A stretch of DNA of 64,000 bases from assembly GCA_027310625.1 (NCBI GenBank), contig DAIDAM010000003.1, positions 67,278-131,277 on the forward strand. Reading direction: 5' to 3'. The position numbers and the translations under genes are program-made. Origin of the DNA: a bacterium (GTDB taxonomy: Bacteria; Patescibacteriota; Minisyncoccia; UBA6257; 2-01-FULL-56-20). The notes beneath the pieces are model-generated. The model saw nothing but the letters and a program-made list of their open reading frames with translations. It searched no databases and was not told where the DNA came from. Shown here in pieces: positions 3,699 to 56,228 of this stretch; within the stretch, counting starts at the first letter, position 1, and every line of letters starts with the position of its first letter.

Positions 3699-3752
3699 AC
3701 GAAAACAAAAACTCTCAACAAGAGCATTTTGTTTTCGTGTGCGTCGGGTAGG
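3699..3752. repeat. partial duplicate of the terminator hairpin plus the last ~13 nt of tRNA-Tyr (gagcattttgttttcgtgtgcgtcgggtagga)
   Basis: 32-nt identity with 3899-3930. Confidence 0.55.
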
Positions 3753-3876
3753 AATCTCACTATTTTGAAACCAGGCGGTTTCAACGCTTCGCCGAGTAAG
3801 ACTCGGCTTCGCTGCTTCCGCATCAGGAAAACTTCCGTTTTCCCGACCCCTTTCACGTTCGAATCCTATTTGTATG

Positions 3877-30955: not shown

Positions 30956-31078
30956 CATCGAATGCCAAAGGGGAAAAGTTGAATTTTCCGGAAATTCTAC
31001 AGACATAAATCAAAACGGCGCATATAGTCAATCCCCGCATAAATACTTATGTGGGAGATCAATTAAACAAAGCGGGAA

Positions 31079-31726
31079 TCAGAAAGGGAGCGTGGGTCCC
31101 GCCAAAATTCTGTAAATCGCATTGATTATCGGAATTATCAAACCGAACCCGAAAAATATGAAAATCAAAATCAAAAACATCCCGTAGCGCTCGAGGAACA
31201 TCGCTATTTGAAAACTTGTCTCGCCCGGCGGCAAAAGCGAAAAGAGAACTTTCGAGCCGTCAAGCGGCGGCAAAGGGACGAGATTGAAAACGGCGAGCAG
31301 GACGTTTATGTAAACGATGAACGCGAAGAAAATCATCAGCGGGGAACCTGTGGCGTATCCGGACGAAGACAACAGACGAAGAAGAATTCCGAAAACGGCG
31401 GCGAGGAGAAGATTGCTCGCCGGTCCTGCAAGCGCGATTTTCCCCGAACCGCTTTTCGGGTTCTTGAGATAAACGGGATTGTAGGGCACCGGCTTTGCCC
31501 AGCCGAAAACGAAAGCCCCTTGAGTCGCGAAAAAAAGCAACACCGGCAAAAGAAACGAGCCGAAAAAATCCAAATGTTTCAACGGATTCAAGGTCAGCCG
31601 TCCCGCGAGCCGCGCCGTCGGGTCGCCCAAACTTTCAGCGACGTAGCCGTGAGAAATTTCGTGAATCATCACGGAGAAAATCAAAACCGCGAGCTGAAAA
31701 ATTAAAAACAAAATGTTTGCTTCCAT
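31079..31726 (-). CDS. site-2 protease family (M50) intramembrane zinc metalloprotease
   Basis: HEISHG (HExxH) in a TM helix and the LDG motif (NLVPLPPLDGSKVL). Confidence 0.8.
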   Translation of the reverse strand: MEANILFLIFQLAVLIFSVMIHEISHGYVAESLGDPTARLAGRLTLNPLKHLDFFGSFLLPVLLFFATQGAFVFGWAKPVPYNPVYLKNPKSGSGKIALAGPASNLLLAAVFGILLRLLSSSGYATGSPLMIFFAFIVYINVLLAVFNLVPLPPLDGSKVLFSLLPPGETSFQIAMFLERYGMFLILIFIFFGFGLIIPIINAIYRILAGPTLPF

Positions 31727-31761
31727 TTCTGCTAAAAATCCATATAATATTAGCACCTCCT

Positions 31762-31941
31762 GCCTCTGTGGTGAAACGGATATCATGACTGCCTTCCCTG
31801 CCCGCCGCAATTTGCCCTCGTGGTGAAATGGATATCACGTCAGGCTTCGAACCTGAAGTTCTAGGTTCAAATCCCGGCGAGGGCACGCGGCAAAGGCAGG
31901 CGGGGAAGCAGTCGTTGGGGGTTCGAATCCCTCCGGAGGCG
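31762..31941 (+). tRNA. interrupted tRNA-like gene. 5' part at 31762-31797 (acceptor, D-arm, 5' anticodon stem); 3' part at 31906-31941 (3' anticodon stem, T-arm TTCGAAT, acceptor, G73, no CCA). An ~110-nt insert lies in the anticodon loop. If spliced after C36, the loop would read CTTCCAA (Gly-UCC); identity unresolved.
   Basis: hand-folded: acceptor gcctctg/cggaggc, D-stem gtga/tcat, anticodon stem actgc/gcagt, T-stem ggggg/ccctc; insert forms a 9-bp helix ttccctgcc/ggcggggaa plus gccgc/gcggc. Confidence 0.5.
31814..31885 (+). tRNA. tRNA-Arg (anticodon TCG), complete 72-nt cloverleaf, nested inside the insert of the 31762-31941 tRNA-like gene
   Basis: acceptor gccctcg/cgagggc, D-arm tggtgaaatggatatcacg, anticodon stem tcagg/cctga with loop cttcgaa, T-loop ttcaaat, A73. 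Confidence 0.7.
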
Positions 31942-31961
31942 CAAACGCAATCGACTCTTTA

Positions 31962-32750
31962 TTGATTGTGGATAAGTTCTTTCAGTTCGGCTATTCTGTG
32001 CCGTATAGTTGGAAGTGTATGGATTATTCCCAACTAAAAAAGAAGGCGATTGCCCTCAGAAAGCAAGGGTTAAGCTACAGTGAAATACAGGGGAGATTGG
32101 ACAGCGCTGTTTCGAAAAGCACGCTTAGCTTATGGTTGAAATCCGTACTCCTCAAACCCGAGCATCGAAAACGGCTTTACACCAAGCAAATTCAAATCCT
32201 TTCCCTTGGATCTCAATCACAGAGAGAGCGAAGACAAAGAGAAATAAACGAAATAATTGAGCGGGCGAAGAAAGAAATCCATACTCCACTTTCTCAAGAA
32301 ACCTATCGTTTCTTCGGAGCCGCGCTTTATTGGGCGGAGGGCGGCAAAACAAAAAACTTTGAAATCACTAATTCTGATCCTTCGTTAATTGCCTTTATAG
32401 TAAAATGGTTTAATGATATTTTCGGCGTGGCGCCGAATAATTTAAAAGCTCATCTTAATCTTTACCCGCAACAGAACGAAAATGATATTAAAAGGTTTTG
32501 GTCAGACATTACGGGAATACCTAAGAAAAATTTTGGCAAAAGTTTTATAAAGCCGCCGAATAAGGGCTATAAGAAAAATAATCTCTATTATGGAACGATA
32601 AGAATAAGAGTTATGAAAGGAACTGACATGAAGCATAGATTATTTGGGTGGATTCAAGCCGCTTTACAAGACATAAATACAAAGGCAGAATTAGTACAGA
32701 GAAAGTGGATACGACTCAGCAAAGTAGCGCGCCCGCCTGTAAATCTATAA
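31962..32750 (+). CDS. HTH-containing protein with a possible LAGLIDADG-like endonuclease motif (FFGAALYWAEGGK); hypothetical
   Basis: N-terminal HTH-like segment (LSYSEIQGRL); LAGLIDADG-like glycine-rich motif; located between tRNA loci. Confidence 0.45.
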   Translation: MIVDKFFQFGYSVPYSWKCMDYSQLKKKAIALRKQGLSYSEIQGRLDSAVSKSTLSLWLKSVLLKPEHRKRLYTKQIQILSLGSQSQRERRQREINEIIERAKKEIHTPLSQETYRFFGAALYWAEGGKTKNFEITNSDPSLIAFIVKWFNDIFGVAPNNLKAHLNLYPQQNENDIKRFWSDITGIPKKNFGKSFIKPPNKGYKKNNLYYGTIRIRVMKGTDMKHRLFGWIQAALQDINTKAELVQRKWIRLSKVARPPVNL

Positions 32751-32751
32751 C

Positions 32752-32823
32752 CCCCCATAGCTCAATTGGCAGAGCAGCGCCCTCTTAAGGCGAGTGTTTC
32801 AGGTTCAAGTCCTGATGGGGGGA
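32752..32823 (+). tRNA. tRNA-Lys (anticodon CTT), probable; C1-G72 start and a 3-bp D-stem make the fold slightly atypical
   Basis: acceptor cccccca/tgggggg, anticodon loop ctcttaa, T-loop ttcaagt, A73. Confidence 0.6.
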
Positions 32824-32830
32824 CAAAATC

Positions 32831-35053
32831 TCACTCCAAATGAAGTTTCCTTTCGAATTCCGCAAGCTTTTCCGCGAGTAAGGGACGGGCTTTGAGATTT
32901 TTGTCTTTCTCTAAAATTTTCACCGCCGCATCTCTCGCCGCTTTCACCATTTCGAAATCCTGCAAGCCGCGCATAGCGACGTCGGGCAAACCGGTTTGCT
33001 TTTGTCCGATGAACTCTCCCGGTCCGCGGATTTTCAAATCTTTTTCTGCGAGTTCGAACCCGTTTTTCGCTTCAACTATCGCTTTTAGACGGTCACTCGT
33101 GGTTTTTGCGGGTGAGTCCGTGAAAAGAAAACAAAACGACTGATGTTCGCCGCGCCCCACGCGTCCGCGGAACTGGTAAAGCTGGGCGAGTCCAAACCTG
33201 TCCGCGCCTTCGATGAGCATTATCGTCGCGTTCGGAACGTCAACGCCGACTTCTATCACCGAGGTGGAAACGAGAACGTCTATTTTGCCTTCCCGAAACG
33301 CTTTCATTACCGCTTCTTTTGAAGGTTTTCCGTCCGAGGCGAGACCTCGCCCGCGTTTAGCGCGTGCGGGCATTTGCCCGTGAAGCATGCCGACTTTCAA
33401 ATCGGGAAAAACGTTCTTGGAAAGTTTTTCGTATTCTTCCTTTACTGCCTTGGTTTCCCAAGGCAACGCGGATTTACGCTGATTGTTATCAGCGCGGATC
33501 TGCGCGGATGTATCCGCGTCTGTCCGCGTGTCCGAGGATTCTATCCTCGGACAAATGACGAACGCCTGCCTTCCTTTTTTTATCTGGCCGCGGATGAACT
33601 GATACGCTTTGTCGCGGTTCGCGGGCGCGACGATTTTTGTGATTATCGGTTTTCTTCCCAAGGGCAATTCGGTGATAGTGGAAATATCCAGGTCGCCGAA
33701 AACCGTGAGCATCAGCGTGCGCGGTATCGGCGTCGCGCTCATCGACAACAGGTGTGGAATCAATTTAGTTTCGCGGTTTTTGTGTAATTCAGCGCGCTGC
33801 CTAACTCCAAAGCGATGCTGCTCATCAATTATCACAAGAGCAAGTTTGTCGAAGCGGACATCTTTTTGGATTAAAGCATGAGTTCCGGCAATTACTTTTA
33901 TTTTTCCGGCGATAACTCCTTTTTTAAACTCGTTCTTCGAAACTAAACTCTCCAAATCATTCTCAAAAAATACTTTTGCTTCTTTGGAAACGAGGAGTCC
34001 CACTTCCGGCTGTTTCCGAAGCGGCAGACGGGCGAAAATTTTTTTGAGCGTCCCGAAATGCTGGCGCGCGAGAATTTCCGTCGGCGCCATGAAAGCGCTT
34101 TGAAAGCCGTTTTCGGCGGCGACGATGGCGGCAACGGCGGCGACAACGGTTTTTCCCGAACCGACGTCGCCCTGCAACAGGCGGTTCATCGGTTTCGGCT
34201 TCCCGATGTCCTGAATGATTTCCCAAAGCGATTTTTTCTGCGACAAAGTAAGTTTGAATGGCAGTGCCTCCGTTATTTCTTTCAGATGTTCAATTTCAAT
34301 TTGAATCGGCTGCGCTTTTTCCTCCGCGAGTTTCATTTTTTGTCTGATGTTGAAAAGCTGGAGAAGAAAAAGGTTCTCGAACGAAAATCTTTTCTTGGCG
34401 GCGAGCGCCGCTTCGAGAGTTTTCGGGAAATGAACGTCGCGGAGCGCCTCGTTTATTTCCGGAACGCCGGCGGAGTCGAGAATTTCTTCCGGAATCCACT
34501 CGGAAATTTCGCCGACGCTTTTCAGAATCGGTTGAATCAAAAACCTGATGCCCCTTGAAGTAAGTCCTCTCGTCTCGGGATAAACGGGCACGAGCCGCCC
34601 GGTATGCCTCATTTCTTGTCCCCGGTCTCTGGTCGCTGGTCGCAAACCGATGAGTTCGTACGCCGGATGCGAAAGATAAATTTCGCGTTCGCCGAGCGAA
34701 ACCTTGCCGGAGAAATTCGCTTCCCGTCCGGGTCGAAGCGTGTTCAAAAGATACGGCTGGTTGAACCACACCGCTTTTATTTCGCCGGTGTCGTCGGCAA
34801 TTATCGCGTCAACTATAACAAAACGCCGCCGGAAAGTGCGGCGGATTTTTATGTCGCGGACGACGCCATGCACCGTCGCCTGCATGCCGGGTTCGAGGTT
34901 CGCTATCGGAACGATTTCCGAAAAATCCTCGTAGCGTGACGGAAAATGAAAAAGCAAATCTCTTATCGTAAAAATCTCGAGTTTCTCCAGTCGTTTCAAA
35001 AATCTCGGCGGAATTCCTCTTATTCCCGAAAGCGGCGTCAAAAGGTCAATCAC
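32831..35053 (-). CDS. recG: ATP-dependent DNA helicase RecG, with repeat-derived in-frame insertions
   Basis: helicase motifs (GDVGSGKT, DEQHRFG, SATPIPRT), wedge domain; inserts RPATRDRGQEM and DTRTDADTSAQIRADNNQRKSAL. Confidence 0.92.
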   Translation of the reverse strand: MIDLLTPLSGIRGIPPRFLKRLEKLEIFTIRDLLFHFPSRYEDFSEIVPIANLEPGMQATVHGVVRDIKIRRTFRRRFVIVDAIIADDTGEIKAVWFNQPYLLNTLRPGREANFSGKVSLGEREIYLSHPAYELIGLRPATRDRGQEMRHTGRLVPVYPETRGLTSRGIRFLIQPILKSVGEISEWIPEEILDSAGVPEINEALRDVHFPKTLEAALAAKKRFSFENLFLLQLFNIRQKMKLAEEKAQPIQIEIEHLKEITEALPFKLTLSQKKSLWEIIQDIGKPKPMNRLLQGDVGSGKTVVAAVAAIVAAENGFQSAFMAPTEILARQHFGTLKKIFARLPLRKQPEVGLLVSKEAKVFFENDLESLVSKNEFKKGVIAGKIKVIAGTHALIQKDVRFDKLALVIIDEQHRFGVRQRAELHKNRETKLIPHLLSMSATPIPRTLMLTVFGDLDISTITELPLGRKPIITKIVAPANRDKAYQFIRGQIKKGRQAFVICPRIESSDTRTDADTSAQIRADNNQRKSALPWETKAVKEEYEKLSKNVFPDLKVGMLHGQMPARAKRGRGLASDGKPSKEAVMKAFREGKIDVLVSTSVIEVGVDVPNATIMLIEGADRFGLAQLYQFRGRVGRGEHQSFCFLFTDSPAKTTSDRLKAIVEAKNGFELAEKDLKIRGPGEFIGQKQTGLPDVAMRGLQDFEMVKAARDAAVKILEKDKNLKARPLLAEKLAEFERKLHLE

Positions 35054-36813: not shown

Positions 36814-37434
36814 CTATATTCTTCCCGCTTCGTTGCTGAAAAACGATTTAACTTCTTTCCAATCCAAGGGTTTGAGCATCTTCGGCATCGGCTCCGCATC
36901 GGCATCATCGAAATATGTCAAACTCTTTTTTATATGCAGCAAGTTGAATTCAAGCGAAGAGTATTTTTTTCGGAACAGCGCGAGAACGTCGTCCAGCGAC
37001 GCCGTTTCCTTGATGATGAAATACAAGTCAATGAAGTCGCGCTTGGCTCCCCTTGCGGAAATGGCGTCTATTTTCATGCAGGCGATGTCGCGGATATCGG
37101 CAAGCCGAACGCCGCCGAAATGCGCCGATGAGAAAAGAAGCGGATAATGATAGCCGATAAAAGACACTTTTGTTTTTTCGAAAACGCCGATTACCGTTTG
37201 CTCGGCGCGTTTCTCCAGCCGGAAACTTCCCAACTCGGAAAGCCGCGAAATCAACAAGGAATCGTTGAAATCGCGTTCCGCAAAGAAATCCAGGTCGCCG
37301 GAAATTCTGTGCCCGAGATAAAGCGCAACCGCCGTTCCGCCGGCGAGATAAAATTCATTTATGCCGATTAAATTTCTAAGCAGAGAAATCGCCTTCTGCG
37401 AATTGCTCGGCAAAACCTCCGGGTGAAAAGTCAT
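36814..37434 (-). CDS. nucleotidyltransferase AbiEii/AbiGii toxin family (type IV TA)
   Basis: LAGGTAVALYLGHRISGDLDFF motif. Confidence 0.75.
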   Translation of the reverse strand: MTFHPEVLPSNSQKAISLLRNLIGINEFYLAGGTAVALYLGHRISGDLDFFAERDFNDSLLISRLSELGSFRLEKRAEQTVIGVFEKTKVSFIGYHYPLLFSSAHFGGVRLADIRDIACMKIDAISARGAKRDFIDLYFIIKETASLDDVLALFRKKYSSLEFNLLHIKKSLTYFDDADAEPMPKMLKPLDWKEVKSFFSNEAGRI

Positions 37435-37838: not shown

Positions 37839-37860
37839 CTAAGGAAGTCCGACTTCCTAA
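37839..37860. repeat. REP-like palindrome (ctaaggaagtccgacttcctaa)
   Basis: member of the TTAGGAAGTCGGACTTCCTAA family. Confidence 0.7.
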
Positions 37861-37876
37861 ATGTTATAATTACAGC

Positions 37877-38578
37877 ATGACGAGACCGCGAATAATTCGG
37901 AACGAAATTTACCATGTCCTTAACCGTGGCGTAGATAAGCGAGCAATTTTCTCAGACGATAACGACCGCCTGCGGTTTATTCATAACCTCTTTGAGTTTA
38001 ACGACACCGCACCTGCACCCAATCTCGCCTACCATCTCGGCAAAAAACAATCTAAGGAAGTCGGACTTCCTAAGATTGAGAGGAGACGGCGGGAACTTTT
38101 GGTGGAAATTCTCGCGTTTTGCATGATGAAAAATCACTATCATCTTTTGGTCAGGCCGAAGGCTGATAATTTTCTAACGTTATTTATGAGAAAACTGGGA
38201 ACAGGGTACACCAATTATTTTAATCAAAAATATAAGCGGAGCGGAGCGCTTTTCCAAGGGAAATACAAAGTGGTGCACATTAACAATGATAGACATTTTA
38301 TTCATCTCCCCTACTACATTCACTTTAATCCATTAGACGGCTTTGCTCCGAGTTGGAGAGAAAAGGAAATAAAGGACCACAAAAAAGCAATGGAATTTTT
38401 GGAGAACTATCGCTGGAGCAGTTTTCCGGACTATATCGGCAGGAAAAATTTTCCTTCAATCACGCAAAGAGAATTTTTACTAAAGTTTTTCGGCGGCCCG
38501 GAGGAATACAAACGCAAAACGACAGAATGGCTAAAAGCAATCGATTTCGAGGCAATACACGACGTTGCACTAGAATAA
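37877..38578 (+). CDS. REP-associated tyrosine transposase (RAYT, IS200-like Y1 transposase); contains an internal REP copy at 38052-38074
   Basis: HxH motif (NHYHLLV) and catalytic Tyr region (LPYYIHFNP); flanked by REP palindromes. Confidence 0.8.
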   Translation: MTRPRIIRNEIYHVLNRGVDKRAIFSDDNDRLRFIHNLFEFNDTAPAPNLAYHLGKKQSKEVGLPKIERRRRELLVEILAFCMMKNHYHLLVRPKADNFLTLFMRKLGTGYTNYFNQKYKRSGALFQGKYKVVHINNDRHFIHLPYYIHFNPLDGFAPSWREKEIKDHKKAMEFLENYRWSSFPDYIGRKNFPSITQREFLLKFFGGPEEYKRKTTEWLKAIDFEAIHDVALE

Positions 38579-38585
38579 TTAATAA

Positions 38586-38606
38586 TTAGGAAGTCGGACT
38601 TCCTAA
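38586..38606. repeat. REP palindrome TTAGGAAGTCGGACTTCCTAA (perfect)
   Basis: perfect 21-bp palindrome. Confidence 0.8.
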
Positions 38607-38623
38607 GAAAAAAACAAGCGGCG

Positions 38624-39089: not shown

Positions 39090-39184
39090 AGTGATATGGT
39101 AGCAAAACTACAAACGTACAGCAAGTTTTTCTGCTACCATTATATCACAATTGTTGCTTAATGGTAACGGGTAATTATTTGTGG

Positions 39185-39206
39185 CTTAGGAAGTCGGACT
39201 TCCTGA
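39185..39206. repeat. REP palindrome copy
   Basis: cttaggaagtcggacttcctga. Confidence 0.75.
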
Positions 39207-41971: not shown

Positions 41972-42415
41972 TTAGTTTCTACGAGTTTCCTTATCCTTTA
42001 TTACCCTATAGGTTGACGATATAAAGTTCTGTAATTTCAGCGACGCCTTTTCGGCAATCACCTTATATTCGGAGTAAGATTTCTTGTCGGCAATTTTGTT
42101 TCTTTCATTCATAAGCTCAAGCCAATAATCATTTGCCTCCATTAAAGAACCGCGGGCATTGTAAAAAAACTTTATCTTGTCCAAGTAATGAAATCTTCCA
42201 TAACCCTCCGCCACATTAGCACCGAAAGAATCTGTTGCTGTAATAAATTGGTCACCCATCGTTTTTTTATCCTGCCAATTTAATCTCTCGTATATTTTCC
42301 ATCCAACCTTTGATAATTCTCTGGCTAATTTATAAATTTCCAAATCCTGTAACTTGATGTAATTCCTTTTAGTTTCCACGAGTTTCTTAGTTTCAATCAG
42401 TATCCTAATTTCCAT
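41972..42415 (-). CDS. four-helix-bundle protein (TIGR02436-type, associated with 23S rRNA intervening sequences)
   Basis: …FGANVAEGYGRF…LMEANDYWLEL…; flanked by GTTTCTTAGTTTC direct repeats. Confidence 0.8.
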   Translation of the reverse strand: MEIRILIETKKLVETKRNYIKLQDLEIYKLARELSKVGWKIYERLNWQDKKTMGDQFITATDSFGANVAEGYGRFHYLDKIKFFYNARGSLMEANDYWLELMNERNKIADKKSYSEYKVIAEKASLKLQNFISSTYRVIKDKETRRN

Positions 42416-44744: not shown

Positions 44745-45170
44745 TTAGGGCTTGGAATTCGGTGTTTTTTTATGGAGCTTGGCGCGGAGAGCTTGAATTT
44801 GTCTCATCAAAACAAGATAGCGGTTTCGCAAATTGTCATGTTCCTGTTCTGTGACATACTCTAATTTAAATGCCAAAGTAAGCGCGGTCAGCACTTCGTT
44901 AATCGAAGTTGCCGCCATCATAAGAAAATGCAGAAACTCTCTTGTTCCCCTCCCGCTTCCCTCCGCTATGTTGAAAGACACAGAAGATGCGGCTCTTCGC
45001 AGTTGGCTCGTCAACCCAAAAAGTTCGCCTTTCGGAAATTTCGAAGTAGTTTTATAAACCTCCAGCGCCAATTCCATACTTTCTTGCCAAATTCGCAATT
45101 TTTCATAATTTGGAGCAGAGTCCTTTAGACTCAAGCTTGGGTCTTGGTTCTTGGAACTTAGTTCACTCAT
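44745..45170 (-). CDS. four-helix-bundle protein (TIGR02436-type)
   Basis: LRIWQESMELALEVYK…NIAEGSGRGTREFLHFLMMAATSINEV; flanked by CTTGGAA-type heptamer repeats. Confidence 0.8.
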   Translation of the reverse strand: MSELSSKNQDPSLSLKDSAPNYEKLRIWQESMELALEVYKTTSKFPKGELFGLTSQLRRAASSVSFNIAEGSGRGTREFLHFLMMAATSINEVLTALTLAFKLEYVTEQEHDNLRNRYLVLMRQIQALRAKLHKKTPNSKP

Positions 45171-46123: not shown

Positions 46124-46191
46124 TTGCGCTTAATTATAACAAAATGTGGTTTGAAAATATGCTTCTCAAGATGTAACATAACAAAATCTTT

Positions 46192-46384
46192 GGCCCCATC
46201 GTCTAACGGTCAGGACATCGGCTTTTTTCACCCCGCACCAAATCCTAGGGCCCTGTCGTCTAGTCTGGTCTAGGACACGAGCTTTTCAAGCTCGGTACAC
46301 GGGTTCGAATCCCGTCGGGGCTGCACAAAATTTGGTGCGGGGCAAGAGCCGGTAACCGGGGTTCGACTCCCCGTGGGGCTGCCA
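46192..46384 (+). tRNA. interrupted tRNA-like gene. 5' part at 46192-46230; 3' part at 46343-46384 (T-arm TTCGACT, acceptor, G73, CCA encoded). A ~112-nt insert lies in the anticodon loop. D-arm is Glu/Gln-like; anticodon unresolved.
   Basis: acceptor ggcccca/tggggct, D-stem gtc/gac, anticodon stem tcggc/gccgg, T-stem cgggg/ccccg; insert contains a 9-bp helix ccccgcacc/ggtgcgggg. Confidence 0.5.
46249..46323 (+). tRNA. tRNA-Glu (anticodon TTC), complete, nested within the insert of the 46192-46384 tRNA-like gene
   Basis: cloverleaf closely parallel to E. coli tRNA-Glu (gtc tag…gac D-arm; stem cgagc/gctcg with loop ttttcaa; T-loop ttcgaat; G73). Confidence 0.7.
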
Positions 46385-46385
46385 A

Positions 46386-48944
46386 ATGTATCGCTTTTTA
46401 GAAATTTTTCCCGGAGCGCTTTCGTGGCTGACTCTTATCTTACTTGTTTCTCTTTCCCGCTACGCGCCGGCGTTCGTCGCCGTTTTCATCATACTTTTTG
46501 ACATCTACTGGCTTTTGAAAACGATTTATCTCTCGCTGCATCTCCGCTCAACTTTTTCGGTTATGAAAAAAAACCTGAAGGTGAACTGGCTCAATGAGCT
46601 GAAGGCACTGCCGCATAATCCCAATGGCCCGAATAGAATCCAAATGCCCCGAATTATAGAAAAGGATCTCTCTTATAAACTAAGCGGGGTTTTCTTCAAA
46701 GTTCATAACCAACTCGGCAGGTTCTGCAGAGAGCGTCAATATGGCGATGCCGTCGCAAAGGAACTTGAATCCCTCGGCGTAAATTTTCAGCGCGAAGTTG
46801 CCGTTGCGGTCGCCGGGCGAAAATCCAATTTCGTAGATTTTGTCGTTGAAAGCAAAATCGCAATAGAACTGAAGACGAAAGACATAATTGACAAAGAAGA
46901 TTATTTCCAACTTCAAAGATACCTTAAAGCGCTGGGATTGGAATTGGGCATAATAGTCAACTTTAGAAGAAAACACTTGAATCCCAAACGCGTTCTCAAT
47001 TCTGACTTCCTTTACAAGTATTCGGCTGATTCAGATACATTCGGCAATTCGGATTATGTGGTCAATAGATATTCGGACAATTCGGATTCATTCGGATATT
47101 CGGATTATGTGAAATCCTGGGAAGACATTTATCATTTGGTGATATTGCCGATGTACCGCGAGCCGTACGAGGTCGTGAAAGGAAGTTTTGAAAGCATATC
47201 TAAAGGAAACTATCCGCTGGAAAAGTTAATTGTCGTCCTGGCGACGGAAGAACGCGCCGGCGCCGAAGCGAGGAAAACGGCTGAGAAAATCAGGCGCGAG
47301 TTCGGCGGCAAATTTTTCAAGTTTTTGATTACCACGCACCCCGCGAATCTCCCCGGCGAAATTCCCGGCAAGGGTTCCAACGAAACCTGGGCGGCGAAAG
47401 AGGCGAAAAGATTAATCATTGACCCACTGGTCAATGCGCAGACCTACGCAGACAACACGCAGACCGACGCAGAAAACGATTTTCTGTATCCAGACCTGAC
47501 ATATGAAATCAGAGGTGCGATATTTTCCATTAAGAAAAAGCTCGGCCTCGGACACAAAGAAGTTGTTTATCAAAAAGCACTGGAAGAGGAATTTAATCGA
47601 CTAGGTTTGAATTTCGAAAAAGAAAAAACGGTGGATATTGCATATAATAACAAAAAAGTTGGTGTCTACCGCCCAGATTTTGTAATTGAGGATAAAATTA
47701 TTTTGGAACTGAAGGCATTACCATTTATGGGCAAATATGAAAAAAGGCAAGTTTGGCAGTATTTAAAAGGAACGGAATATAAACTAGCTATGTTGGTAAA
47801 CTTCGGCGGTAGCGATATTCGCATAGATAGAATAGTTTACGACACAGCTCGCGCAAGTCAGCGTAAGTCTGCGTTAAGTCAGCGAGAGTCAGCGCTGAAA
47901 TATGAAAATGTTTTAGTGTCGGTTTTCGACATTGACACACAGATATTTCCGGAGTATTTCGGGCGCCTCACATATGTCTTTTTGAAATCCGAAGACAAAT
48001 TGCAGGCGATTTACCAGCCGATACCGCTTTTCATAAATAACATCTACGACGCGCCGGCGCTCGCGCGCGTGATTTCCTTTTCAAGCACCTTCTGGCAGAT
48101 GATGCAGCAGTCGCGGCCGGAACGGCTGACGTCTTTTTCGTCGCAGTCAATCCCCTTGCGGGCGCTCATTGACATCGGCTACTGGCACAAAAACGTCGTC
48201 TCCGAGGACTCGCGGATTTTCTGGCAGTGCTATCTCCGCTATCACGGGAACTTCCGCGTCGAACCGCTTTTTTACCCGGTTTCGATGGACGCCAACGCCG
48301 CGCCGACATTTTGGAGAACGCTCAAAAATAATTACTTGCAGCACCGCCGCTGGGCCTGGGGCTGCGAAAACATTCCCTACTTGCTCTGCGGCAAACATAA
48401 TCCGAATCCACGAATGCATCCGAATAACACGAATAGGAGTCCAGATAATAAATTAGATTCGGAACATTCGGATAGATTCGGGGATTCGGATTATGCGGAG
48501 GGTTTCCTCCACAACAAAAAAATCCCTCTCCGCAAAAAGCTCTACTGGTCGTTCAATGTAATTGAAGGATTCCATTCCTGGGCGACGAACGCGCTGATAA
48601 TTTTCGCTCTCGGCTGGCTGCCCGTTCTTTTGGGCGGAGAAGGTTTCGGGATTTCCATTTTGTCGCGGAGCCTGCCTTCGATTACAAGATTCATCATTCA
48701 ACTCTCGATGGTCGGAGTCGCCACCGCCGCTTTCTTCAGCATTCTTCTTCTGCCGCCGCGAAAAGAACCTCTCGAATGGCATCAGTATATTTGGTATCTC
48801 CTCCAATGGCTTCTTCTGCCCGCGACACTCATAATTTTCGGGTCCATCCCCGCGCTCGAGGCGCAAACGCGGCTGATGGTCGGCGGAAAATGGCGGCTCG
48901 GATTCTGGCCGACGCCGAAAACGAGAACCAATAATAGAAGCTAG
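46386..48944 (+). CDS. processive family-2 glycosyltransferase (cellulose-synthase-like; GKGxN, DxD, Q(H)RRW motifs) carrying two in-frame GxxExxY domain insertions (~46644-47000 and ~47481-47840) plus heptamer-repeat tracts
   Basis: GT2 motifs VILPMYREP, GKGSNETWAAKEA, VFDIDTQ, QHRRWAWG; inserted segments each align with the free-standing GxxExxY gene at 28546. Confidence 0.8.
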   Translation: MYRFLEIFPGALSWLTLILLVSLSRYAPAFVAVFIILFDIYWLLKTIYLSLHLRSTFSVMKKNLKVNWLNELKALPHNPNGPNRIQMPRIIEKDLSYKLSGVFFKVHNQLGRFCRERQYGDAVAKELESLGVNFQREVAVAVAGRKSNFVDFVVESKIAIELKTKDIIDKEDYFQLQRYLKALGLELGIIVNFRRKHLNPKRVLNSDFLYKYSADSDTFGNSDYVVNRYSDNSDSFGYSDYVKSWEDIYHLVILPMYREPYEVVKGSFESISKGNYPLEKLIVVLATEERAGAEARKTAEKIRREFGGKFFKFLITTHPANLPGEIPGKGSNETWAAKEAKRLIIDPLVNAQTYADNTQTDAENDFLYPDLTYEIRGAIFSIKKKLGLGHKEVVYQKALEEEFNRLGLNFEKEKTVDIAYNNKKVGVYRPDFVIEDKIILELKALPFMGKYEKRQVWQYLKGTEYKLAMLVNFGGSDIRIDRIVYDTARASQRKSALSQRESALKYENVLVSVFDIDTQIFPEYFGRLTYVFLKSEDKLQAIYQPIPLFINNIYDAPALARVISFSSTFWQMMQQSRPERLTSFSSQSIPLRALIDIGYWHKNVVSEDSRIFWQCYLRYHGNFRVEPLFYPVSMDANAAPTFWRTLKNNYLQHRRWAWGCENIPYLLCGKHNPNPRMHPNNTNRSPDNKLDSEHSDRFGDSDYAEGFLHNKKIPLRKKLYWSFNVIEGFHSWATNALIIFALGWLPVLLGGEGFGISILSRSLPSITRFIIQLSMVGVATAAFFSILLLPPRKEPLEWHQYIWYLLQWLLLPATLIIFGSIPALEAQTRLMVGGKWRLGFWPTPKTRTNNRS
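47000..47115. repeat. ATTCGGA/ATTCGGC heptamer-type repeat tract encoding …DSDTFGNSDYVVNRYSDNSDSFGYSDY… inside the GT2 gene; a similar tract at ~48405-48490
   Basis: period-7 direct repeats. Confidence 0.7.
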
Positions 48945-50864: not shown

Positions 50865-53800
50865 TTGAAAAGATTGAACAGGTTGAGACAATCCCTTAAA
50901 ATAAAATCAATGTCGGAGATTTTGGAACCGCGATACGACCACCAAAAGCACGAAAAGGAAATTTACGAACTCTGGGAAAAGAGCGGGTATTTTAATCCGG
51001 ATAATTTGCCTACGGCAAGTTCGGAGTTCGGAGTTCGAAGTTCGAAGAATAAAAAAATATCTCAAACGAAACCTCGAACCTCGAACCTCGAACCGTTTTC
51101 CATTATCATGCCTCCGCCGAACGCGAACGGCTCGCTACATCTCGGGCACGCCGTGTTCGTCGCGTTGCAGGACATACTCATAAGATTCTGGCGCATGCGC
51201 GGCAAAAAAGCGCTCTGGCTTCCGGGGGCGGACCACGCCGGCTTTGAAACGCAGGTTGTCTTCGACAAAAAACTTGAAAAGGAAGGGCGGAATAGATTCA
51301 CCATTCCGCGCGAGGAACTTTTCAAAGAAATCTGGGACTTCACCCAGCACAATAAAAAAATAATGGAAGAGCAGTTGCGTAAACTCGGAGCGTCGTGCGA
51401 CTGGAGCCGCGAAAAATTCACGCTTGACCCGGCAATCATTAGAATCGTCTATGAAACTTTTGAAAAACTTTACAAGGACGGACTTCTTTACCGCGATTTG
51501 CGCGTCGTCAACTGGTGTCCGAAACACAAAACCGCGCTCTCCGACCTGGAAGTGAAGCACGAAGAGCGTCTGGACCAGCTCTACTACATAAAGTATGGGC
51601 CACTAACATTAGCGACAGTGAGACCGGAAACGAAATTCGGCGACACGGCGCTTGCCGTGAACCCGAAGGACAAACGCTATTCAAAATACATCGGAAAAGA
51701 AATACGCGCCTTGGGCCTGCTCGGCAAACTCACATTCAAAGTCATCGCCGACGAAGCCGTTGACCCGAAATTCGGGACGGGGGTCATTAAGGTCACGCCC
51801 GCGCATGACCCCGCGGACTTTGAAATCTGGCAAAGGCACAAAAAAGAAATTCCCGGTCCGAAAATAATCATTGACGAAAACGGGCGGCTTACCGGCGAAA
51901 CAGGAAAATTCGCAGGGATGAAAGTCGCGGAAGCGAGAATAAAAGTCGCCGAAGCGATGAAAGAAATCGGCATTCTTGAAAAAGTTGAGAACGATTACAA
52001 ACACTCCGTTGCCGTCTGCTACAAGTGCGGCAACGTGCTCGAGCCGATTCCGAAGATGCAATGGTTCATCGCCATGACGGCGAAACCGCATCAATCAAGA
52101 GACCGGAGACCGGAGACTGGAGACCGGAAAAAATCGTTGCGCGATTTGGGAATCGAGGCAGTTGAAAAGAAAAAAATAAAATTTTATCCGGCGCATTCCA
52201 AAAAAGTCATTCTTCATTGGCTGAAAAATATCCGCGACTGGAACATTTCGCGGCAAATCGTCTGGGGCATAAGAATCCCCGTCTGGTACTGCCTCGCCTG
52301 CTCCGCCCGCCCCGAGAGCAATCGAGGGGAGCCGAAGATAAACATTAATCAGGAAGTGAAATCGCGCTGGTTTCTCGTAAGGCACGGGGAAACGGATTGG
52401 AACAAGGAAGGACGCATAATGGGACAATCCGACATTCCACTCAATAAAACTGGGATGGCGCAGGCGGAAGAAGCCGCGCGGGAATTAAAGCCGCACAAGG
52501 TAGATCTTATTATAAGTTCTGACTCGGCGCGCTGTCGCCAAACTGCGGAAATAATTAAAAAAGAGACGGGCGCGGAAATAATCCTCGAAAAAAAATTAAG
52601 AGAGCGCCACCACGGAGACATCGAGGGATTGCTACGAAAGGATGTTTTTGAACAATATCCCCGTATTTACGAATACAGCTACGAAGGCAAATATATGAAT
52701 GCCGAAAGCTATCGCGAATTGGAAGAGCGCGCATGGGAAGTTTTCTCGTCGCACCATTCAAGGCACGGCCATAAAAACGTCGTTTTGATTACGCACGGTG
52801 GGACGATTAGGATGCTTATAAAAAGAATAAAAAATCTTACTCCGGAAGCGGCTCTCTCAATACCTTCCAGAAAAAACGCGGAGATAATCCAGCTTGACGT
52901 TTTGGATAAATGCGAAAATTGCGGCGGACATTTTTACGAGCAGGACCCCGACGTTTTTGACACCTGGTTCTCGTCCGGGCAATGGCCGTTTGCGACGCTG
53001 ATGACGAGCGACAAAAAAATGGGTTTCCATGAAGAAGTTGTCCCGCAGGTTTTGGACGGCAAAACCAAGACATACCGCTTGCGCGACCACGGATTCAAGG
53101 TCGGCGACAAGGTTTTGTTTGAAAACTCCGCTACCAAAAAAATCTTCGGATATGGAATTATCACGGAAGCAAAAAAAACCACGATAGACAAAATAGATTA
53201 CACAGACAAAAGCCATTACAAAACCTATAAAAATCTGGACGAGTTGATGACGGCGTTCAAACACAAGAACCCAGAAAAAACTTTTACTTCCAAATCTCCT
53301 GCTTATCTTTACGCTTACGATTTTTACCCGGCGAAAAATTTGGAGACCGACTTCGAAACTTTTTATCCGACCGATGTGATGGAAACCGGATACGACATAC
53401 TTTTCTTCTGGGTGGCGAGGATGGTCATGCTCGGAATTTACACGACGGGAAAAATTCCTTTCAGAACTGTTTATCTCCACGGCTTGGTTCTCGACAAAGA
53501 CAAAAAGAAAATGTCCAAGTCCAAAGGCAACGTTATTGACCCGCTCGGCGTCGCCGAAATTTACGGAAGCGACGCGCTCCGCATGGCGCTGGTCGCCGGC
53601 AACACCGCCGGCAAGGATATCGTCATCTCCGAAGACAAAATCCGCGGCTACAGGAATTTTGCGACGAAAGTGTGGAACATCAGCCGATTCATTTTAATGA
53701 ATAAAATGAAAGACATCAGACATCAGACATCAGACATCAGGGTAAAATTAACGGCTTCAGACAAAAAAAATATTGCGGAAGCCGAAAAAATCAAAGATAA

Positions 53801-54176: not shown

Positions 54177-54273
54177 GGGCTACGAAATTACGAATCAGTA
54201 CGAATATACGAATTCGTACATTCGCCTGCCTGCCGCAGGCAGGTAAAAATCTATAAATTAGTAACCTGACTTA

Positions 54274-55506: not shown

Positions 55507-55794
55507 ATGCGACATTGCGCAATTTGCGGAAAAGGTTCAATAATCGGAGGTAGAAGGAAGCTCCTGCGCGGGCATTACAATCCCGTTTCGAAATCGAGAA
55601 AATACCCCAATCTTCAGTGGGCCCGCCTGCCATCGCCTGCGGCTCAGTCCTCTGGCGGGCAGGCGAGAATCCCCGCCAAAGGCGGGTCCCTGCCCGACGG
55701 CGGGCGCGGCGCCTCGGGTGGAAATGGCGTACGAAAACTTATCTGCGCTCAATGCTTAAAAACGTTGAACCGCAAAGCCAAGACGAAAAAATGA
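55507..55794 (+). CDS. rpmB: 50S ribosomal protein L28 carrying a ~33-aa GC-rich in-frame insertion (55620-55720)
   Basis: L28 N- and C-terminal conserved segments (MRHCAICGKG…; …RKLICAQCLKTLNRK) separated by a Gly/Pro/Ala-rich segment of ~70% GC. Confidence 0.75.
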   Translation: MRHCAICGKGSIIGGRRKLLRGHYNPVSKSRKYPNLQWARLPSPAAQSSGGQARIPAKGGSLPDGGRGASGGNGVRKLICAQCLKTLNRKAKTKK

Positions 55795-55842
55795 CTTTGC
55801 GGACGGCGGGCCATAGTATATCCCGCAACTTTTGTATCCAAT

Positions 55843-55913
55843 CGGGCTGTAGTATAACGGCAGTACGCATGCATGGGGTGCATGTAGCCCGGGTTCGATT
55901 CCCGGCAGCCCGA
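55843..55913 (+). tRNA. tRNA-Pro (anticodon GGG), with C1-G72 as in bacterial tRNA-Pro
   Basis: acceptor cgggctg/cagcccg, anticodon stem catgc/gcatg with loop atggggt, T-loop ttcgatt. Confidence 0.65.
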
Positions 55914-56228
55914 CAAATTACAATAAAGGTTCGATTCTCCCGCCATTGTTCGAGCGAAGCGAGTTTACAATGGCGTGGATCCCGTACTCTCTCAATCCCA
56001 AAAAAAACACAAAATATAAAAATAGCGGCGGGATCGCGCCAACTCTAACTTCGCTTTCGCTCAGAGAGTTGCGGGACGCCTGGCCCGACACTAGAAATCG
56101 CTTGGCGAGTATTCGAGCTTAGCGTTTCTTGTGCCCCGCCGCAGGCGGGGCCGCCATATGCACCTTCCTTCGCTCCCGTCTTCACAAGGGCTACGGCGGG
56201 CAAGAAAGCTTCGGAAGAGTTATCAACA

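What the first reader, a model, noticed from the sequence alone, without database searches (positions are those of the whole stretch)
31762..31941. A tRNA nested inside the anticodon-loop insert of another tRNA-like gene (locus 1: outer gene carries tRNA-Arg-TCG)
All elements of a tRNA are present but split. Acceptor 5' strand plus D-arm plus 5' anticodon stem lie at 31762-31797; 3' anticodon stem plus T-arm (TTCGAAT) plus acceptor 3' strand lie at 31906-31941. Every stem pairs. About 110 nt separate the halves. The insert has an extended 9-bp helix (ttccctgcc/ggcggggaa) continuous with the anticodon stem, a second 5-bp helix, and at the tip a complete canonical tRNA-Arg(TCG) at 31814-31885. 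The inner and outer D-arms are near-identical (tggtgaaaTggatatcaCg vs tggtgaaaCggatatcaTg), suggesting a duplication origin. Bacteria are not known to excise tRNA-containing inserts from tRNA anticodon loops. The insert is too short (~110 nt) for a group I intron. The layout resembles archaeal split or intron-containing tRNAs that are joined through GC-rich complementary leader/trailer helices. Two readings are possible. One is an intron that releases a second tRNA via RNase P/Z processing. The other is a two-piece tRNA held together by the 9-bp helix. A possible LAGLIDADG-like gene (31962-32750) lies immediately downstream.
Basis: seen in the sequence. Interest (0 to 1): 0.85.

Follow-up and report, generated by a model that had tools for sequence, protein, structure and literature searches.

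The report
tRNA gene nested inside cognate tRNA
An intact arginine tRNA gene sits on a ~110-bp cassette with inverted-repeat ends, inside the anticodon loop of a second arginine tRNA gene; the same layout recurs for many tRNAs across Patescibacteria, which points to an undescribed insertion cassette that brings its own replacement tRNA rather than to a spliced intron.

Summary
At 31762-31941 two tRNA-Arg halves with all 21 stem pairs intact flank a complete tRNA-Arg(TCG), and a second such locus (tRNA-Glu) lies at 46192-46381.

An excise-and-rescan screen found outer tRNAs at 4 of 239 Patescibacteria tRNAs, against 0 of 4000 random excisions. In the Glu locus and in at least 32 other tRNAs of 12 isotypes, the insert is bounded by one conserved inverted repeat, CCCCGCACCAA...TTGGTGCGGGG. 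It sits in the D, anticodon or T loop of a cognate outer tRNA. The window's Arg arms are a diverged version.

The closest relatives keep the same gene order with a plain tRNA-Arg, so nesting is a derived gain. Three results argue against a spliced intron:
- Precise excision would restore a normal loop only in the Arg case.
- The asymmetric junction words occur in both orientations relative to the tRNA.
- Outer copies range from intact to decayed, multiply nested and riddled with further hairpins.

The best reading is a DNA-level palindromic cassette carrying a replacement tRNA. Compensatory changes in the outer Glu stems keep open a selected tRNA-like scaffold role. I found no prior description.

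The parts
31744..31749 (+). TATAAT, a -10-like hexamer 12 nt upstream of the outer 5' end; probable promoter element of the resident (outer) gene
   Evidence: Read. The consensus scan found no full -35/-10 pair here, so this is weak.
31762..31792 (+). Outer tRNA-Arg 5' half: acceptor strand, D arm, 5' strand of the anticodon stem
   Evidence: The body is 84% identical to the stand-alone tRNA-Arg(TCG) of L023.
31793..31813 (+). Left boundary of the cassette: CTTC (equal to the first 4 nt of the native loop CTTCGAA and to the generic junction word CTTG), then left arm CCTGCC-CGCCGC, then spacer AATTT
   Evidence: It resembles the family consensus CTTGC-CCCGCACCAA and the CCTGCC...GGCAGG palindrome family.
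31814..31885 (+). Inner, intact tRNA-Arg(TCG); the likely functional gene
   Evidence: ARAGORN; Rfam 63.2 bits; 85% identical to the stand-alone L029 gene.
31886..31907 (+). Right boundary of the cassette: C, GCGGC, AAAGGCA, right arm GGCGGGG, then AA
   Evidence: It ends in GCGGGG, as does the family arm TTGGTGCGGGG.
31908..31941 (+). Outer tRNA-Arg 3' half: 3' strand of the anticodon stem, variable loop, T arm, acceptor strand, discriminator G
32019..32750 (+). Conserved Patescibacteria ORF with a transposase-type N-terminal HTH; its stop codon abuts tRNA-Lys. It occupies a variable slot between tRNA-Arg and tRNA-Lys. Its link to the nesting is unproven.
32751..32823 (+). tRNA-Lys(CTT), the syntenic partner of tRNA-Arg(TCG); not nested
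46151..46179 (+). Promoter-like site TTGAAA-17-TAACAT, 12 nt upstream of the outer tRNA-Glu
46192..46230 (+). Second locus: outer tRNA-Glu 5' half, ending TCGGC, plus junction TTTTTTCA
   Evidence: The outer is 92% identical to the stand-alone L035 tRNA-Glu.
46231..46248 (+). Left arm CCCCGCACCAAAT plus spacer CCTAG
46249..46323 (+). Inner, intact tRNA-Glu(TTC)
   Evidence: 59.1 bits; 88% identical to the stand-alone L006 tRNA-Glu.
46324..46347 (+). Spacer, right arm ATTTGGTGCGGGG, junction CAAGA
46348..46381 (+). Outer tRNA-Glu 3' half (GCCGG, TAAC, T arm, acceptor strand, G)
55806..55945 (+). Possible third, strongly decayed case around tRNA-Pro(GGG) 55843-55913: GGCGGGCCATAGTATA upstream and GGTTCGATTCTCCCGCCA downstream
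   Evidence: It was not detected by the excision screen or the flank scan, so it is not significant.

Best explanation
The locus is a resident tRNA-Arg(TCG) gene that was split in its anticodon loop, between positions 35 and 36, by a ~110-bp cassette with palindromic ends. The cassette carries a second, intact tRNA-Arg(TCG). It belongs to a family of elements with inverted-repeat ends (core CCCCGCACCAA...TTGGTGCGGGG, with diverged arms here). In Patescibacteria these elements land in loops of structured-RNA genes. In an essential single-copy tRNA gene such an insertion survives only if the cassette supplies a cognate replacement.

Proposed working, all inferred: the whole unit is transcribed from the resident gene's promoter, because the cassette has no room for one. 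The arms and the old anticodon stem form one long helix. RNase P and the 3'-end processing enzymes release the inner tRNA, which does the decoding. The outer halves cannot decode. They persist as a tRNA-shaped relic that decays with time and can be hit again, giving the multiple nesting seen elsewhere.

Shown: the anatomy, the recurrence, the conserved ends, that the insert is a derived state, and the lack of restorable loops in sister loci. Inferred: DNA-level mobility, the enzyme involved, how the cargo was acquired, and the RNA processing.
For: 1. Recurrence well above chance: 4 of 239 tRNAs by the excision screen against 0 of 4000 controls; 8 of 239 by the flank-alignment criterion.
2. Conserved ends: the same inverted repeat bounds the insert in window-Glu, L019-Pro and L039-Asp/Ala. 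A metagenome scan gave at least 120 stretches. Of 128 elements in all held sequence, including the genome loci and the window, 32 carry a tRNA of 12 isotypes.
3. For 30 of the 33 tRNA cargoes examined (these 32 plus window-Arg) the flanks are the 5' and 3' parts of a cognate tRNA. ARAGORN calls the joined flanks a tRNA in 11 of 32 elements with tRNA cargo and in 0 of 96 with other cargo.
4. The insertion point is a D, anticodon or T loop depending on isotype.
5. The junction words CYYG|C..G|TRAA also occur as their reverse complement TTYA|C..G|CRRG relative to the tRNA direction: 14 against 7-10 cases. In the second orientation the possible G-U pairs become A-C mismatches, so the conservation is in the DNA rather than the RNA.
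6. Derived state: relatives with 75-78% identical M50 protease keep M50 / tRNA-Arg / tRNA-Lys / RecG with a plain tRNA-Arg.
7. Each layer has stand-alone counterparts elsewhere: outer Arg 84% to L023, inner Arg 85% to L029, inner to outer only 74%; outer Glu 92% to L035, inner Glu 88% to L006.
8. Sister outers cannot be repaired by excision. Glu has two extra nucleotides on each side of the native loop. Orientation-A Pro outers lack U33. Asn lacks the 3' strand of the D stem.
9. Outers range from intact to decayed. Some are multiply nested (L123, L178) or carry extra cargo-less hairpins (L105, L178, L012, L118, L124, L135).
10. The genome carries many other small inserted elements.
Against: No transposase, recombinase or autonomous parent element with these ends was found. 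No clean target-site duplication or general target rule could be derived. How a cassette comes to hold the cognate tRNA is unexplained.

In the one likely vertical pair, window and L187 Glu, which are syntenic with homologous spacers, the outer halves are 79-87% identical while the upstream intergenic DNA is at background. Of 13 differences, 8 form 4 compensatory pairs. That suggests selection on the outer fold.

Within a genome, inner and outer Asn are more alike (88-92%) than inners of different genomes (72-86%). This fits local copying or gene conversion better than simple horizontal cargo.

The arm helix also closes conserved RNA structures: RNase P P3, and a 5'-leader family in fixed orientation. 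It may therefore have an RNA-level role too.

In this particular locus the halves abut as CTTC|GAA, exactly the native loop, so splicing cannot be excluded for Arg.
Confidence: 0.5

Rival explanations
1. Selected scaffold. The insertion happened as above, but the outer tRNA-shaped fold is kept by selection because it does something at the RNA level. It could give the precursor defined ends through RNase P, 3'-end processing and CCA addition. It could stabilise or present the inner pre-tRNA. It could also survive as a two-piece tRNA-like RNA with an extended arm after the inner tRNA is cut out.
For: Window against L187 Glu: 4 compensatory pairs against 1 broken pair in the outer stems, while the flanking intergenic DNA is unalignable. 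All 21 outer pairs are intact in both window loci. T loops and D-loop GG are intact. Outer Asn anticodon loops CTGTTAA are intact in 4 of 6 lineages. The arm helix recurs as a closing helix in RNase P RNA and in a leader RNA family. Its outer 7 bp equal the tRNA-Gln/fMet acceptor stem and are followed by CCAA, resembling an RNase P substrate end.
Against: Many outers are clearly decayed, truncated or riddled with further hairpins. Only 11 of 32 still score as tRNA. The compensatory changes could predate independent insertions into already diverged resident genes. The junction words are conserved as DNA, not as an RNA motif. No function for an anticodon-less tRNA-Arg or tRNA-Glu is known, and ArgRS and GluRS need the anticodon (established knowledge).
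Confidence: 0.2
2. RNA-level intervening sequence. The cassette is removed from the transcript, for example by RNase P and 3'-end processing at the embedded tRNA plus cleavage in the arm helix. The outer halves are then ligated or stay paired, so that one transcript yields two working tRNAs.
For: In this locus the exons abut as CTTC|GAA, and joining 31796 to 31905 gives a perfect tRNA-Arg(TCG). The position, 35/36, is the one where self-splicing group I introns sit in Patescibacteria tRNA-Asn and tRNA-Asp (PMC13011429). Inserts always lie in loops. The outer fold is intact here.
Against: There is no group I intron signal at E<=10 and the insert is only ~110 nt. There is no bulge-helix-bulge motif: a 1-nt bulge, a 9-bp helix and a 7-nt asymmetric loop. 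[quoted passage not shown] For Glu, Pro and Asn no cut sites give a canonical loop or D arm. CTTC..GAA also matches the generic junction words CTTG..TGAA, so the exact abutment may be coincidence. Both orientations of the junction words occur. No splicing endonuclease or RNA ligase was seen among the 20 larger ORFs scanned in about half of the window, 25-26 kb and 35-63 kb. This is a weak negative, since the rest was not scanned and the enzymes could lie elsewhere in the genome.
Confidence: 0.12
3. Local rearrangement without a mobile cassette. Nesting arose by in-place copying of the resident tRNA into a pre-existing palindromic hairpin, for example by repair synthesis or gene conversion after a break in the pseudo-palindromic loop. 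The similarity of ends across genomes would then reflect a common hairpin element rather than a tRNA-carrying unit.
For: Inner and outer Asn of one genome are 88-92% alike, more than inners across genomes. Cargo-less hairpins with the same arms exist. The insert in Arg lies at the dyad of TTCGAA. ORFs resembling homing endonucleases (GIY-YIG in L206, the HTH ORF here) occupy the slot next to this tRNA.
Against: In the window, inner and outer are only 74% (Arg) and ~82% (Glu) alike, and each is closer to stand-alone genes of other lineages. The two Asn and Asp sequence types swap inner and outer roles between genomes. No mechanism is known that gives an A-[A-B]-B order.
Confidence: 0.1

Closest known systems
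Intervening sequences (IVS) of bacterial 23S/16S rRNA, excised by RNase III without religation
   Same: A ~100-200-nt insert closed by a long inverted-repeat stem that replaces a loop of a structured-RNA gene. Sporadic distribution and multiple sites. The host RNA keeps its fold around it. This genome also encodes two 23S_rRNA_IVP proteins.
   Different: The host here is a tRNA, or RNase P RNA in other loci. Fragmenting an anticodon loop destroys decoding, and the insert carries a complete cognate tRNA that replaces the host's function. The arm sequence is conserved across genes and genomes. RNase III cleavage was not tested.
Archaeal disrupted tRNA genes: BHB introns at canonical and non-canonical positions, multiple introns, split and permuted tRNAs (PMC4033280, PMC3218864, PMC3978253)
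   Same: Inserts in the D, anticodon and T loops of tRNA genes. Related insert sequences sit at different positions and in different tRNAs. GC-rich helices bring the halves together.
   Different: No bulge-helix-bulge motif. A bacterial host with no known splicing endonuclease. The inserts contain a whole tRNA. The exons of most cases cannot be rejoined into a canonical tRNA.
MITEs and REP/REPIN-type palindromic elements
   Same: Non-coding ~100-130-bp units with terminal inverted repeats of 11-16 bp. Two orientations. Many copies across related genomes. They can form long hairpins.
   Different: No cognate transposase was identified. The window's RAYT-like gene is flanked by a different REP. 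There is no clear target-site duplication, only 1-2 copies per ~64 kb, cargo that is a functional tRNA, and targets that are loops of the cognate tRNA gene.
Integrative elements (phages, ICEs) that insert in tRNA genes and carry a tRNA segment to restore the gene
   Same: They target the anticodon or T-loop region of tRNA genes and compensate for the damage with element-borne tRNA sequence, leaving tRNA fragments behind. Many one-sided 3' relics are also seen here.
   Different: Those elements are kilobases long and encode an integrase. They restore the gene by a hybrid attL and leave one displaced 3' fragment. Here a whole tRNA on a ~110-bp unit is nested between both halves.
Group I introns at position 35/36 in Patescibacteria tRNA-Asn/Asp (Nakagawa et al. 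2026, PMC13011429)
   Same: The same phylum, the same unusual 35/36 site for the Arg locus, and genes missed by standard tRNA finders.
   Different: The insert is too short, gives no Intron_gpI match and has a tRNA in place of a ribozyme core. Self-splicing is implausible.
Engineered 'tRNA scaffold' RNAs (an RNA of interest replacing the anticodon stem-loop of a tRNA; own knowledge, Ponchon and Dardel 2007)
   Same: The same topology: a tRNA body whose anticodon arm is extended by a helix that carries a folded RNA at its tip.
   Different: That is an artificial construct. Nothing shows that the natural outer body is used to stabilise or process the cargo.

Membership tests
Canonical bacterial tRNA gene (inner, 31814-31885) | Cloverleaf with 7/4/5/5-bp stems, U33, T-loop TTCRANY, score above the Rfam gathering threshold | tested here: met
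   Rfam RF00005 63.2 bits against a threshold of 29; ARAGORN tRNA-Arg(TCG). There is one A-C mismatch at 51-63.
Canonical tRNA gene (outer, halves joined in silico) | Recognised as a tRNA after removal of the insert, with a 7-nt anticodon loop | tested here: met
   ARAGORN calls 31796|31905 as a 73-nt tRNA-Arg(TCG) and calls the outer after excision of the inner. No covariance-model score could be obtained for a joined sequence with these tools. For locus 2 (Glu) the body is called, but the native loop is not restored.
Group I intron | Conserved P3-P8 core, length of at least ~200 nt, match to Rfam Intron_gpI | tested here: not met
   No Intron_gpI match at E<=10 in 31000-33500. The insert is 108 nt, 72 of which are the tRNA.
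Archaeal/eukaryal BHB tRNA intron | Two 3-nt bulges on opposite strands separated by a 4-bp helix at the exon-intron borders | tested here: not met
   Structure read: a 1-nt bulge (C31793), a 9-bp helix, then a loop of 0-1 nt on one strand and 7 nt on the other. Locus 2 has a 4-nt/1-nt internal loop next to a 13-bp helix.
Archaeal/eukaryal BHB tRNA intron | Presence of a splicing endonuclease (EndA) and an RtcB-type ligase in the genome | not testable with these tools
   Only 64 kb of the genome is held. Neither enzyme was among the 20 larger ORFs scanned.
Split (two-piece) tRNA | Halves transcribed separately, or cut apart, then joined or held together to give a decoding tRNA with an anticodon loop | tested here: inconclusive
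   The halves are co-linear on one strand behind one promoter-like site. Release of the inner tRNA would leave two paired pieces without a closed anticodon loop. No RNA data are available.
MITE | Terminal inverted repeats | tested here: met
   An 11-bp perfect core, extended imperfectly to about 16 bp, in 128 elements.
MITE | Target-site duplication and a parent IS or transposase with the same ends | tested here: not met
   No consistent duplication; at most a CA/TG dinucleotide in some cases. No long element bounded by the arms in 2.08 Mb of held sequence.
REP/REPIN mobilised by a RAYT | The RAYT gene is flanked by the same REP that forms the dispersed doublets | tested here: not met
   The window RAYT-like gene 37877-38578 (Y1_Tnp homologue) is flanked by AGGAAGTCGGACTTCCT repeats, not by the cassette arms.
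rRNA-type intervening sequence | Insert closed by a long stem that replaces a hairpin loop of a structured RNA | tested here: met
   tRNA D, anticodon and T loops; RNase P RNA P3 loop and P19 position.
rRNA-type intervening sequence | Excision by RNase III, with the host RNA functional as fragments | not testable with these tools
   This needs RNA end-mapping or in vitro cleavage.
LAGLIDADG homing endonuclease (ORF 32019-32750) | LAGLIDADG motif and alpha-beta-beta-alpha-beta-beta-alpha core detectable by profile or fold | tested here: inconclusive

The most novel reading that the evidence does not exclude
The cassette is a new kind of bacterial intervening sequence that is removed by the tRNA-processing machinery itself. 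RNase P and the 3'-end processing enzymes cut out the embedded tRNA. The conserved arm helix (its outer 7 bp equal a tRNA-Gln/fMet acceptor stem and are followed by CCAA, resembling an RNase P substrate end) then holds or directs rejoining of the outer halves. One transcript would yield two tRNAs, or a working two-piece tRNA, in a bacterium.
Probability: 0.1. Interest if true: 0.95.

Novelty: new variant of a known kind. Interest (0 to 1): 0.75.

Why it matters
If the main reading holds, Patescibacteria harbour small selfish cassettes that can sit inside essential single-copy tRNA genes because they bring their own replacement. That would be a compact way for tRNA genes to be overwritten, swapped between lineages and layered one inside another.

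It would also explain why tRNA finders and annotators see odd tRNA fragments, and why assemblies break at these loci.

The conserved arm helix recurs in RNase P RNA and in mRNA leaders. This hints at a shared, unidentified DNA- or RNA-binding factor in a phylum whose RNA biology (introns, rRNA insertions) is already unusual.

If instead the outer genes are spliced or function as two pieces, this would be the first protein-dependent tRNA splicing or split tRNA in bacteria. That bears directly on the old question of how disrupted tRNA genes arise.

Tried and rejected
- ARAGORN with intron search on the intact window does not report the outer genes, so an excise-and-rescan screen was used instead.
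- The Rfam evalue-mode scan of 31000-33500 gave only the two tRNAs and noise, with no intron, ribozyme or tmRNA-like family.
- Viral contigs contain no copy of the arm pair.
- A link to the RAYT-like Y1 transposase was considered and rejected, because its flanking REP is a different sequence.
- A search for an autonomous element bounded by the arms (160-5000 bp apart) found nothing convincing.
- Attempts to derive a target-site duplication or a single insertion rule failed. Orientation-B anticodon-loop cases fit native-left / TT-CA / [C..G] / CA-AG / native-right, but T-loop and D-loop cases do not.
- Locus 3 (tRNA-Pro) was examined and judged not significant.
- Eight literature searches (nested tRNA, Patescibacteria tRNA introns and insertions, split tRNA in bacteria, and the motif itself) found no description.
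- The Logan contig of the same organism starts inside the inner tRNA. I did not take this as evidence of polymorphism, because tRNA genes commonly break metagenome assembly graphs.
Full report
**1. What is there.**
- A 5' tRNA half (acceptor GCCTCTG, D arm, anticodon-stem strand ACTGC) ends at 31792.
- A 3' half (GCAGT, CGTT, T arm GGGGG-TTCGAAT-CCCTC, acceptor CGGAGGC, discriminator G) runs from 31908 to 31941.
- All 21 stem pairs form.
- Between the halves lie a 9-bp helix, an asymmetric loop and a 5-bp helix. At the tip sits a complete tRNA-Arg(TCG) at 31814-31885 (ARAGORN; Rfam 63.2 bits).
- The whole region folds into these nested helices with z = -4.3.
- ARAGORN's intron mode does not call the outer gene in place. 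It does once the inner tRNA is deleted.
- Joining 31796 to 31905 gives a 73-nt tRNA-Arg(TCG) whose loop is CTTCGAA.

**2. It is not a one-off and not chance.**
- T-loop-like motifs sit just downstream of other tRNAs. Following them led to a second, cleaner case at 46192-46381, where an intact tRNA-Glu(TTC) lies inside a tRNA-Glu-like gene.
- I fetched 80 Patescibacteria loci through the conserved downstream ORF. I then deleted each of 239 ARAGORN tRNAs in turn and rescanned.
- A tRNA spanning the deletion appeared at four places: the two window loci, L019 tRNA-Pro and L039 tRNA-Asp.
- The same procedure on 4000 random 71-76-nt deletions gave none.
- By a looser criterion (the 5' flank aligns to the 5' part and the 3' flank to the 3' part of the tRNA), 8 of 239 tRNAs are nested. 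A further 19 have a one-sided relic, mostly 3'.

**3. A conserved pair of ends.**
- In window-Glu, L019-Pro and L039-Asp/Ala the insert is bounded by the same inverted repeat, CCCCGCACCAA ... TTGGTGCGGGG.
Viral contigs had none.
- Of 128 elements in all held sequence, 32 carry a tRNA: Pro, Asn, Asp, Arg, Met, Glu, Val, Ala, Ser, Gly and Leu.
- For 30 of the 33 tRNA cargoes examined (these 32 plus window-Arg) the flanks are the two parts of a cognate tRNA.
- ARAGORN still calls the joined flanks a tRNA in 11 of 32. It does so in none of the 96 elements with other cargo.
- The break point depends on the isotype. It is in the anticodon loop for Pro, Asp, Glu and Arg-TCG, in the D loop for Asn, and in the T loop for Val, Met and several Arg.
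- The arms of the window's Arg locus (CCCTGCC-CGCCGCAA ... GCGGC-AAA-GGCAG-GCGGGG) are a diverged version. They share the CTT./..GAA junction and the terminal GCGGGG. They also resemble a second palindrome family, CCTGCCTGCCGGCAGGCAGG, which occurs in this window at 11421 and 54225 and in other loci. This assignment is by inspection.

**4. The nesting is a gain, and both layers look like ordinary tRNA genes of the phylum.**
- Relatives whose M50 protease is 75-78% identical keep the order M50 / tRNA-Arg(TCG) / tRNA-Lys(CTT) / RecG, but with a plain tRNA-Arg.
- The joined outer Arg is 84% identical to the stand-alone gene of L023. The inner is 85% identical to that of L029. Inner and outer are only 74% alike.
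- The outer Glu is 92% identical to the stand-alone L035 gene. The inner Glu is 88% identical to the stand-alone gene of L006, which has no arms and lies near the same membrane glycosyltransferase gene.
- In the Asn and Asp families, two sequence types swap inner and outer roles between genomes.

**5. Is it an intron?**
- The insert gives no group I signal and is far too short.
- There is no bulge-helix-bulge motif.
- Only the Arg locus could be rejoined into a native loop. That abutment, CTTC|GAA, is nearly the generic junction CTTG|..|TGAA, so it may be coincidence.
- The outer Glu has TCGGC-TT-TTTTCA[..]CAA-GA-GCCGG where the native gene has TCGGC-TTTTCAA-GCCGG.
- Orientation-A outer Pro loops lack U33, and the outer Asn lacks the 3' strand of the D stem.
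- The few nucleotides that extend the arms are asymmetric: CYYG on one side and TRAA on the other. They occur as exact reverse complements relative to the direction of the tRNA, in 14 against 7-10 cases, even within tRNA-Pro(CGG).
- In one orientation these words could extend the RNA helix through G-U pairs. In the other they would be A-C mismatches. Their conservation is therefore a property of the DNA.
- Together these results argue against a directional RNA splicing signal.

**6. Relic or scaffold?**
- Many outers are decayed (L193, L118, L124). Some are multiply nested: L123 has two successive Pro 5' halves, and L178 has at least three layers. Others carry extra cargo-less hairpins of three palindrome families. 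This is the pattern expected of dead genes that keep being hit.
- Against that, the window and L187 Glu loci are syntenic and share homologous spacers.
- Their outer halves are 87% and 79% identical, while the upstream intergenic DNA is at background.
- Of the 13 outer differences, 8 make four compensatory pairs and only one breaks a pair.
- If the insertion predates the split of these lineages, the outer fold has been under selection. If the same site was hit independently in both, the covariation is older than the insertion. I cannot decide between these.

**7. Proposed working.**
- Shown: the architecture, the conserved ends, the loop positions, the cognate cargo and the derived state.
- Shown for Glu only: a promoter-like site upstream of the outer gene, TTGAAA-17-TAACAT at 46151-46179. 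For Arg there is only a TATAAT 12 nt upstream, which the consensus scan did not call. The 4-27-nt spacers of the cassettes leave no room for a promoter.
- Inferred: the unit is transcribed from the resident promoter. The inner tRNA is released by RNase P and 3'-end processing and does the decoding. The outer halves remain as a paired, anticodon-less by-product.
- Inferred: insertions into single-copy tRNA genes survive only when the cargo is cognate. Because the cargo carries a fresh copy of the target loop, it can be hit again, which gives the repeated nesting.
- Unknown: the enzyme that moves or creates the cassettes, and how cargo is captured.
- The arm helix also forms P3, or sits at the P19 position, of some RNase P RNAs. 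It also closes a conserved ~110-nt structure upstream of rplK, nusG, rpmJ, murA and other genes. A second, RNA-level role for it is therefore possible.

**8. The downstream ORF.**
- ORF 32019-32750 belongs to a family with more than 1000 members at 60-75% identity across Patescibacteria. Where I looked, it lies between tRNA-Arg(TCG) and tRNA-Lys(CTT), and its stop codon abuts or lies within about 20 nt of tRNA-Lys.
- It has a transposase-type N-terminal HTH.
- In close relatives the same slot is empty or holds a GIY-YIG ORF.
- It may be a free-standing endonuclease-like gene that favours this tRNA pair. A role in the nesting is speculation.

**9. Comparison and novelty.**
- The nearest analogues are rRNA intervening sequences, archaeal disrupted tRNA genes, MITE/REPIN-type palindromic elements, and integrative elements that repair the tRNA gene they enter.
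- None of these combines a ~110-bp unit with inverted-repeat ends, a complete cognate tRNA as cargo, and insertion into loops of the same tRNA.
- Eight full-text searches found nothing on this.
- The recent survey of Patescibacteria tRNA introns reports only group I introns (PMC13011429).
- I rate it a new variant of a known kind, with a small chance (about 0.1) that it is a new bacterial RNA-processing pathway.

Noticed in passing
window 37839-38607 (also 38051-38074, 39175-39200): A RAYT-like Y1 (IS200-like) transposase gene at 37877-38578 is flanked by inverted copies of its own palindromic REP (CTAAGGAAGTCGGACTTCCTAAG). It is 62% identical to an ORF 1.1 kb from the nested tRNA-Glu of L187.
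   Followed up: partly
window 11421-11440, 54225-54243, 55626-55663: CCTGCCTGCCGGCAGGCAGG-type palindromes occur 5 times against 0.05 expected. The first two are preceded by TACGAAT/ATTCG-rich repeats. The same hairpin sits upstream of tRNA-Arg in L009 and L211 and inside the D loop of the outer tRNA-Val of L135. The copy at 55626 encloses ATCGCCTGCGGCTCAG, which resembles the cargo motif of the leader family noted below.
   Followed up: partly
window 46386-48944, 50865-54176; L207 1-2215: Host proteins carry in-frame inserted domains. The glycosyltransferase next to the nested tRNA-Glu has two PDDEXK_3 nuclease domains (852 aa against 514-566 aa in L006 and L187). A class I aminoacyl-tRNA synthetase has a His_Phos_1 domain at residues 503-680. 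RecG of L207 has a PDDEXK_3 insert.
   Followed up: partly
window 41972-42415 and 44745-45170 (- strand): Two '23S rRNA-intervening sequence protein' (four-helix-bundle) ORFs. An AbiEii toxin-like ORF lies at 36814-37434.
   Followed up: no
window 32019-32750 with 32751-32823; L002 10001-10863; L003 10001-10822; L206 330-871: The stop codon of the conserved HTH ORF abuts tRNA-Lys(CTT) in the window and L002, and lies 20 nt before it in L003-L005. The slot between tRNA-Arg(TCG) and tRNA-Lys(CTT) is empty, holds this ORF, or holds a GIY-YIG ORF, depending on the genome.
   Followed up: partly
L102, L108, L127, L129, L161, L175-L177, L181 (two copies), L185, L188, L198, L205: A ~110-nt element closed by the same arm helix, with a conserved GCC-UNCG-GGC hairpin. 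It lies in fixed orientation just upstream of the start codons of rplK, nusG, rpmJ, murA and other genes. Next to it is a covarying hairpin that pairs with the start codon. It matches no Rfam family at the gathering threshold.
   Followed up: partly
L106 4180-4676, L150, L110 1923-2397: RNase P RNAs of ~475-500 nt in which the arm helix forms P3 with an 84-nt insert in its loop (L106; in L150 the same reading rests on matching flanks and cargo, not an Rfam alignment), or sits as a ~100-nt insert at the P19 position (L110).
   Followed up: partly
L095, L096, L113, L121, L133, L139, L157, L174, L184: A conserved ~100-nt unit containing several copies of the arm motif paired with GGTAGGGGG-type partners. 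It could be another structured RNA or a short array.
   Followed up: no
L002 7380-7720: tRNA-Arg(TCG) flanked by a 13-nt copy of its 5' end 103 nt upstream, a copy of its 3' end 138 nt downstream and an inverted copy of its T arm. This is a nested arrangement with a ~300-nt insert and different ends.
   Followed up: no
window about 3740-3760 (- strand); 17 tRNAs in L006-L072: One-sided 3' relics: a copy of the last ~18-35 nt of the tRNA lies 14-190 nt downstream of the gene. Examples include the window's tRNA-Tyr and the tRNA-Arg of the closest relative, L006.
   Followed up: no
L012 320-650; L118, L124 outer Asn: A further palindrome family, CCCCGTAGC...GCTACGGGG, is inserted in the D and T regions of outer relic tRNAs.
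   Followed up: no
20 tRNA genes in held loci: Patescibacteria initiator tRNA-Met and tRNA-Gln genes share the acceptor stem (N)GCGGGG/CCCCGCA. This equals the outer 7 bp of the cassette arm helix, which continues with CCAA.
   Followed up: partly
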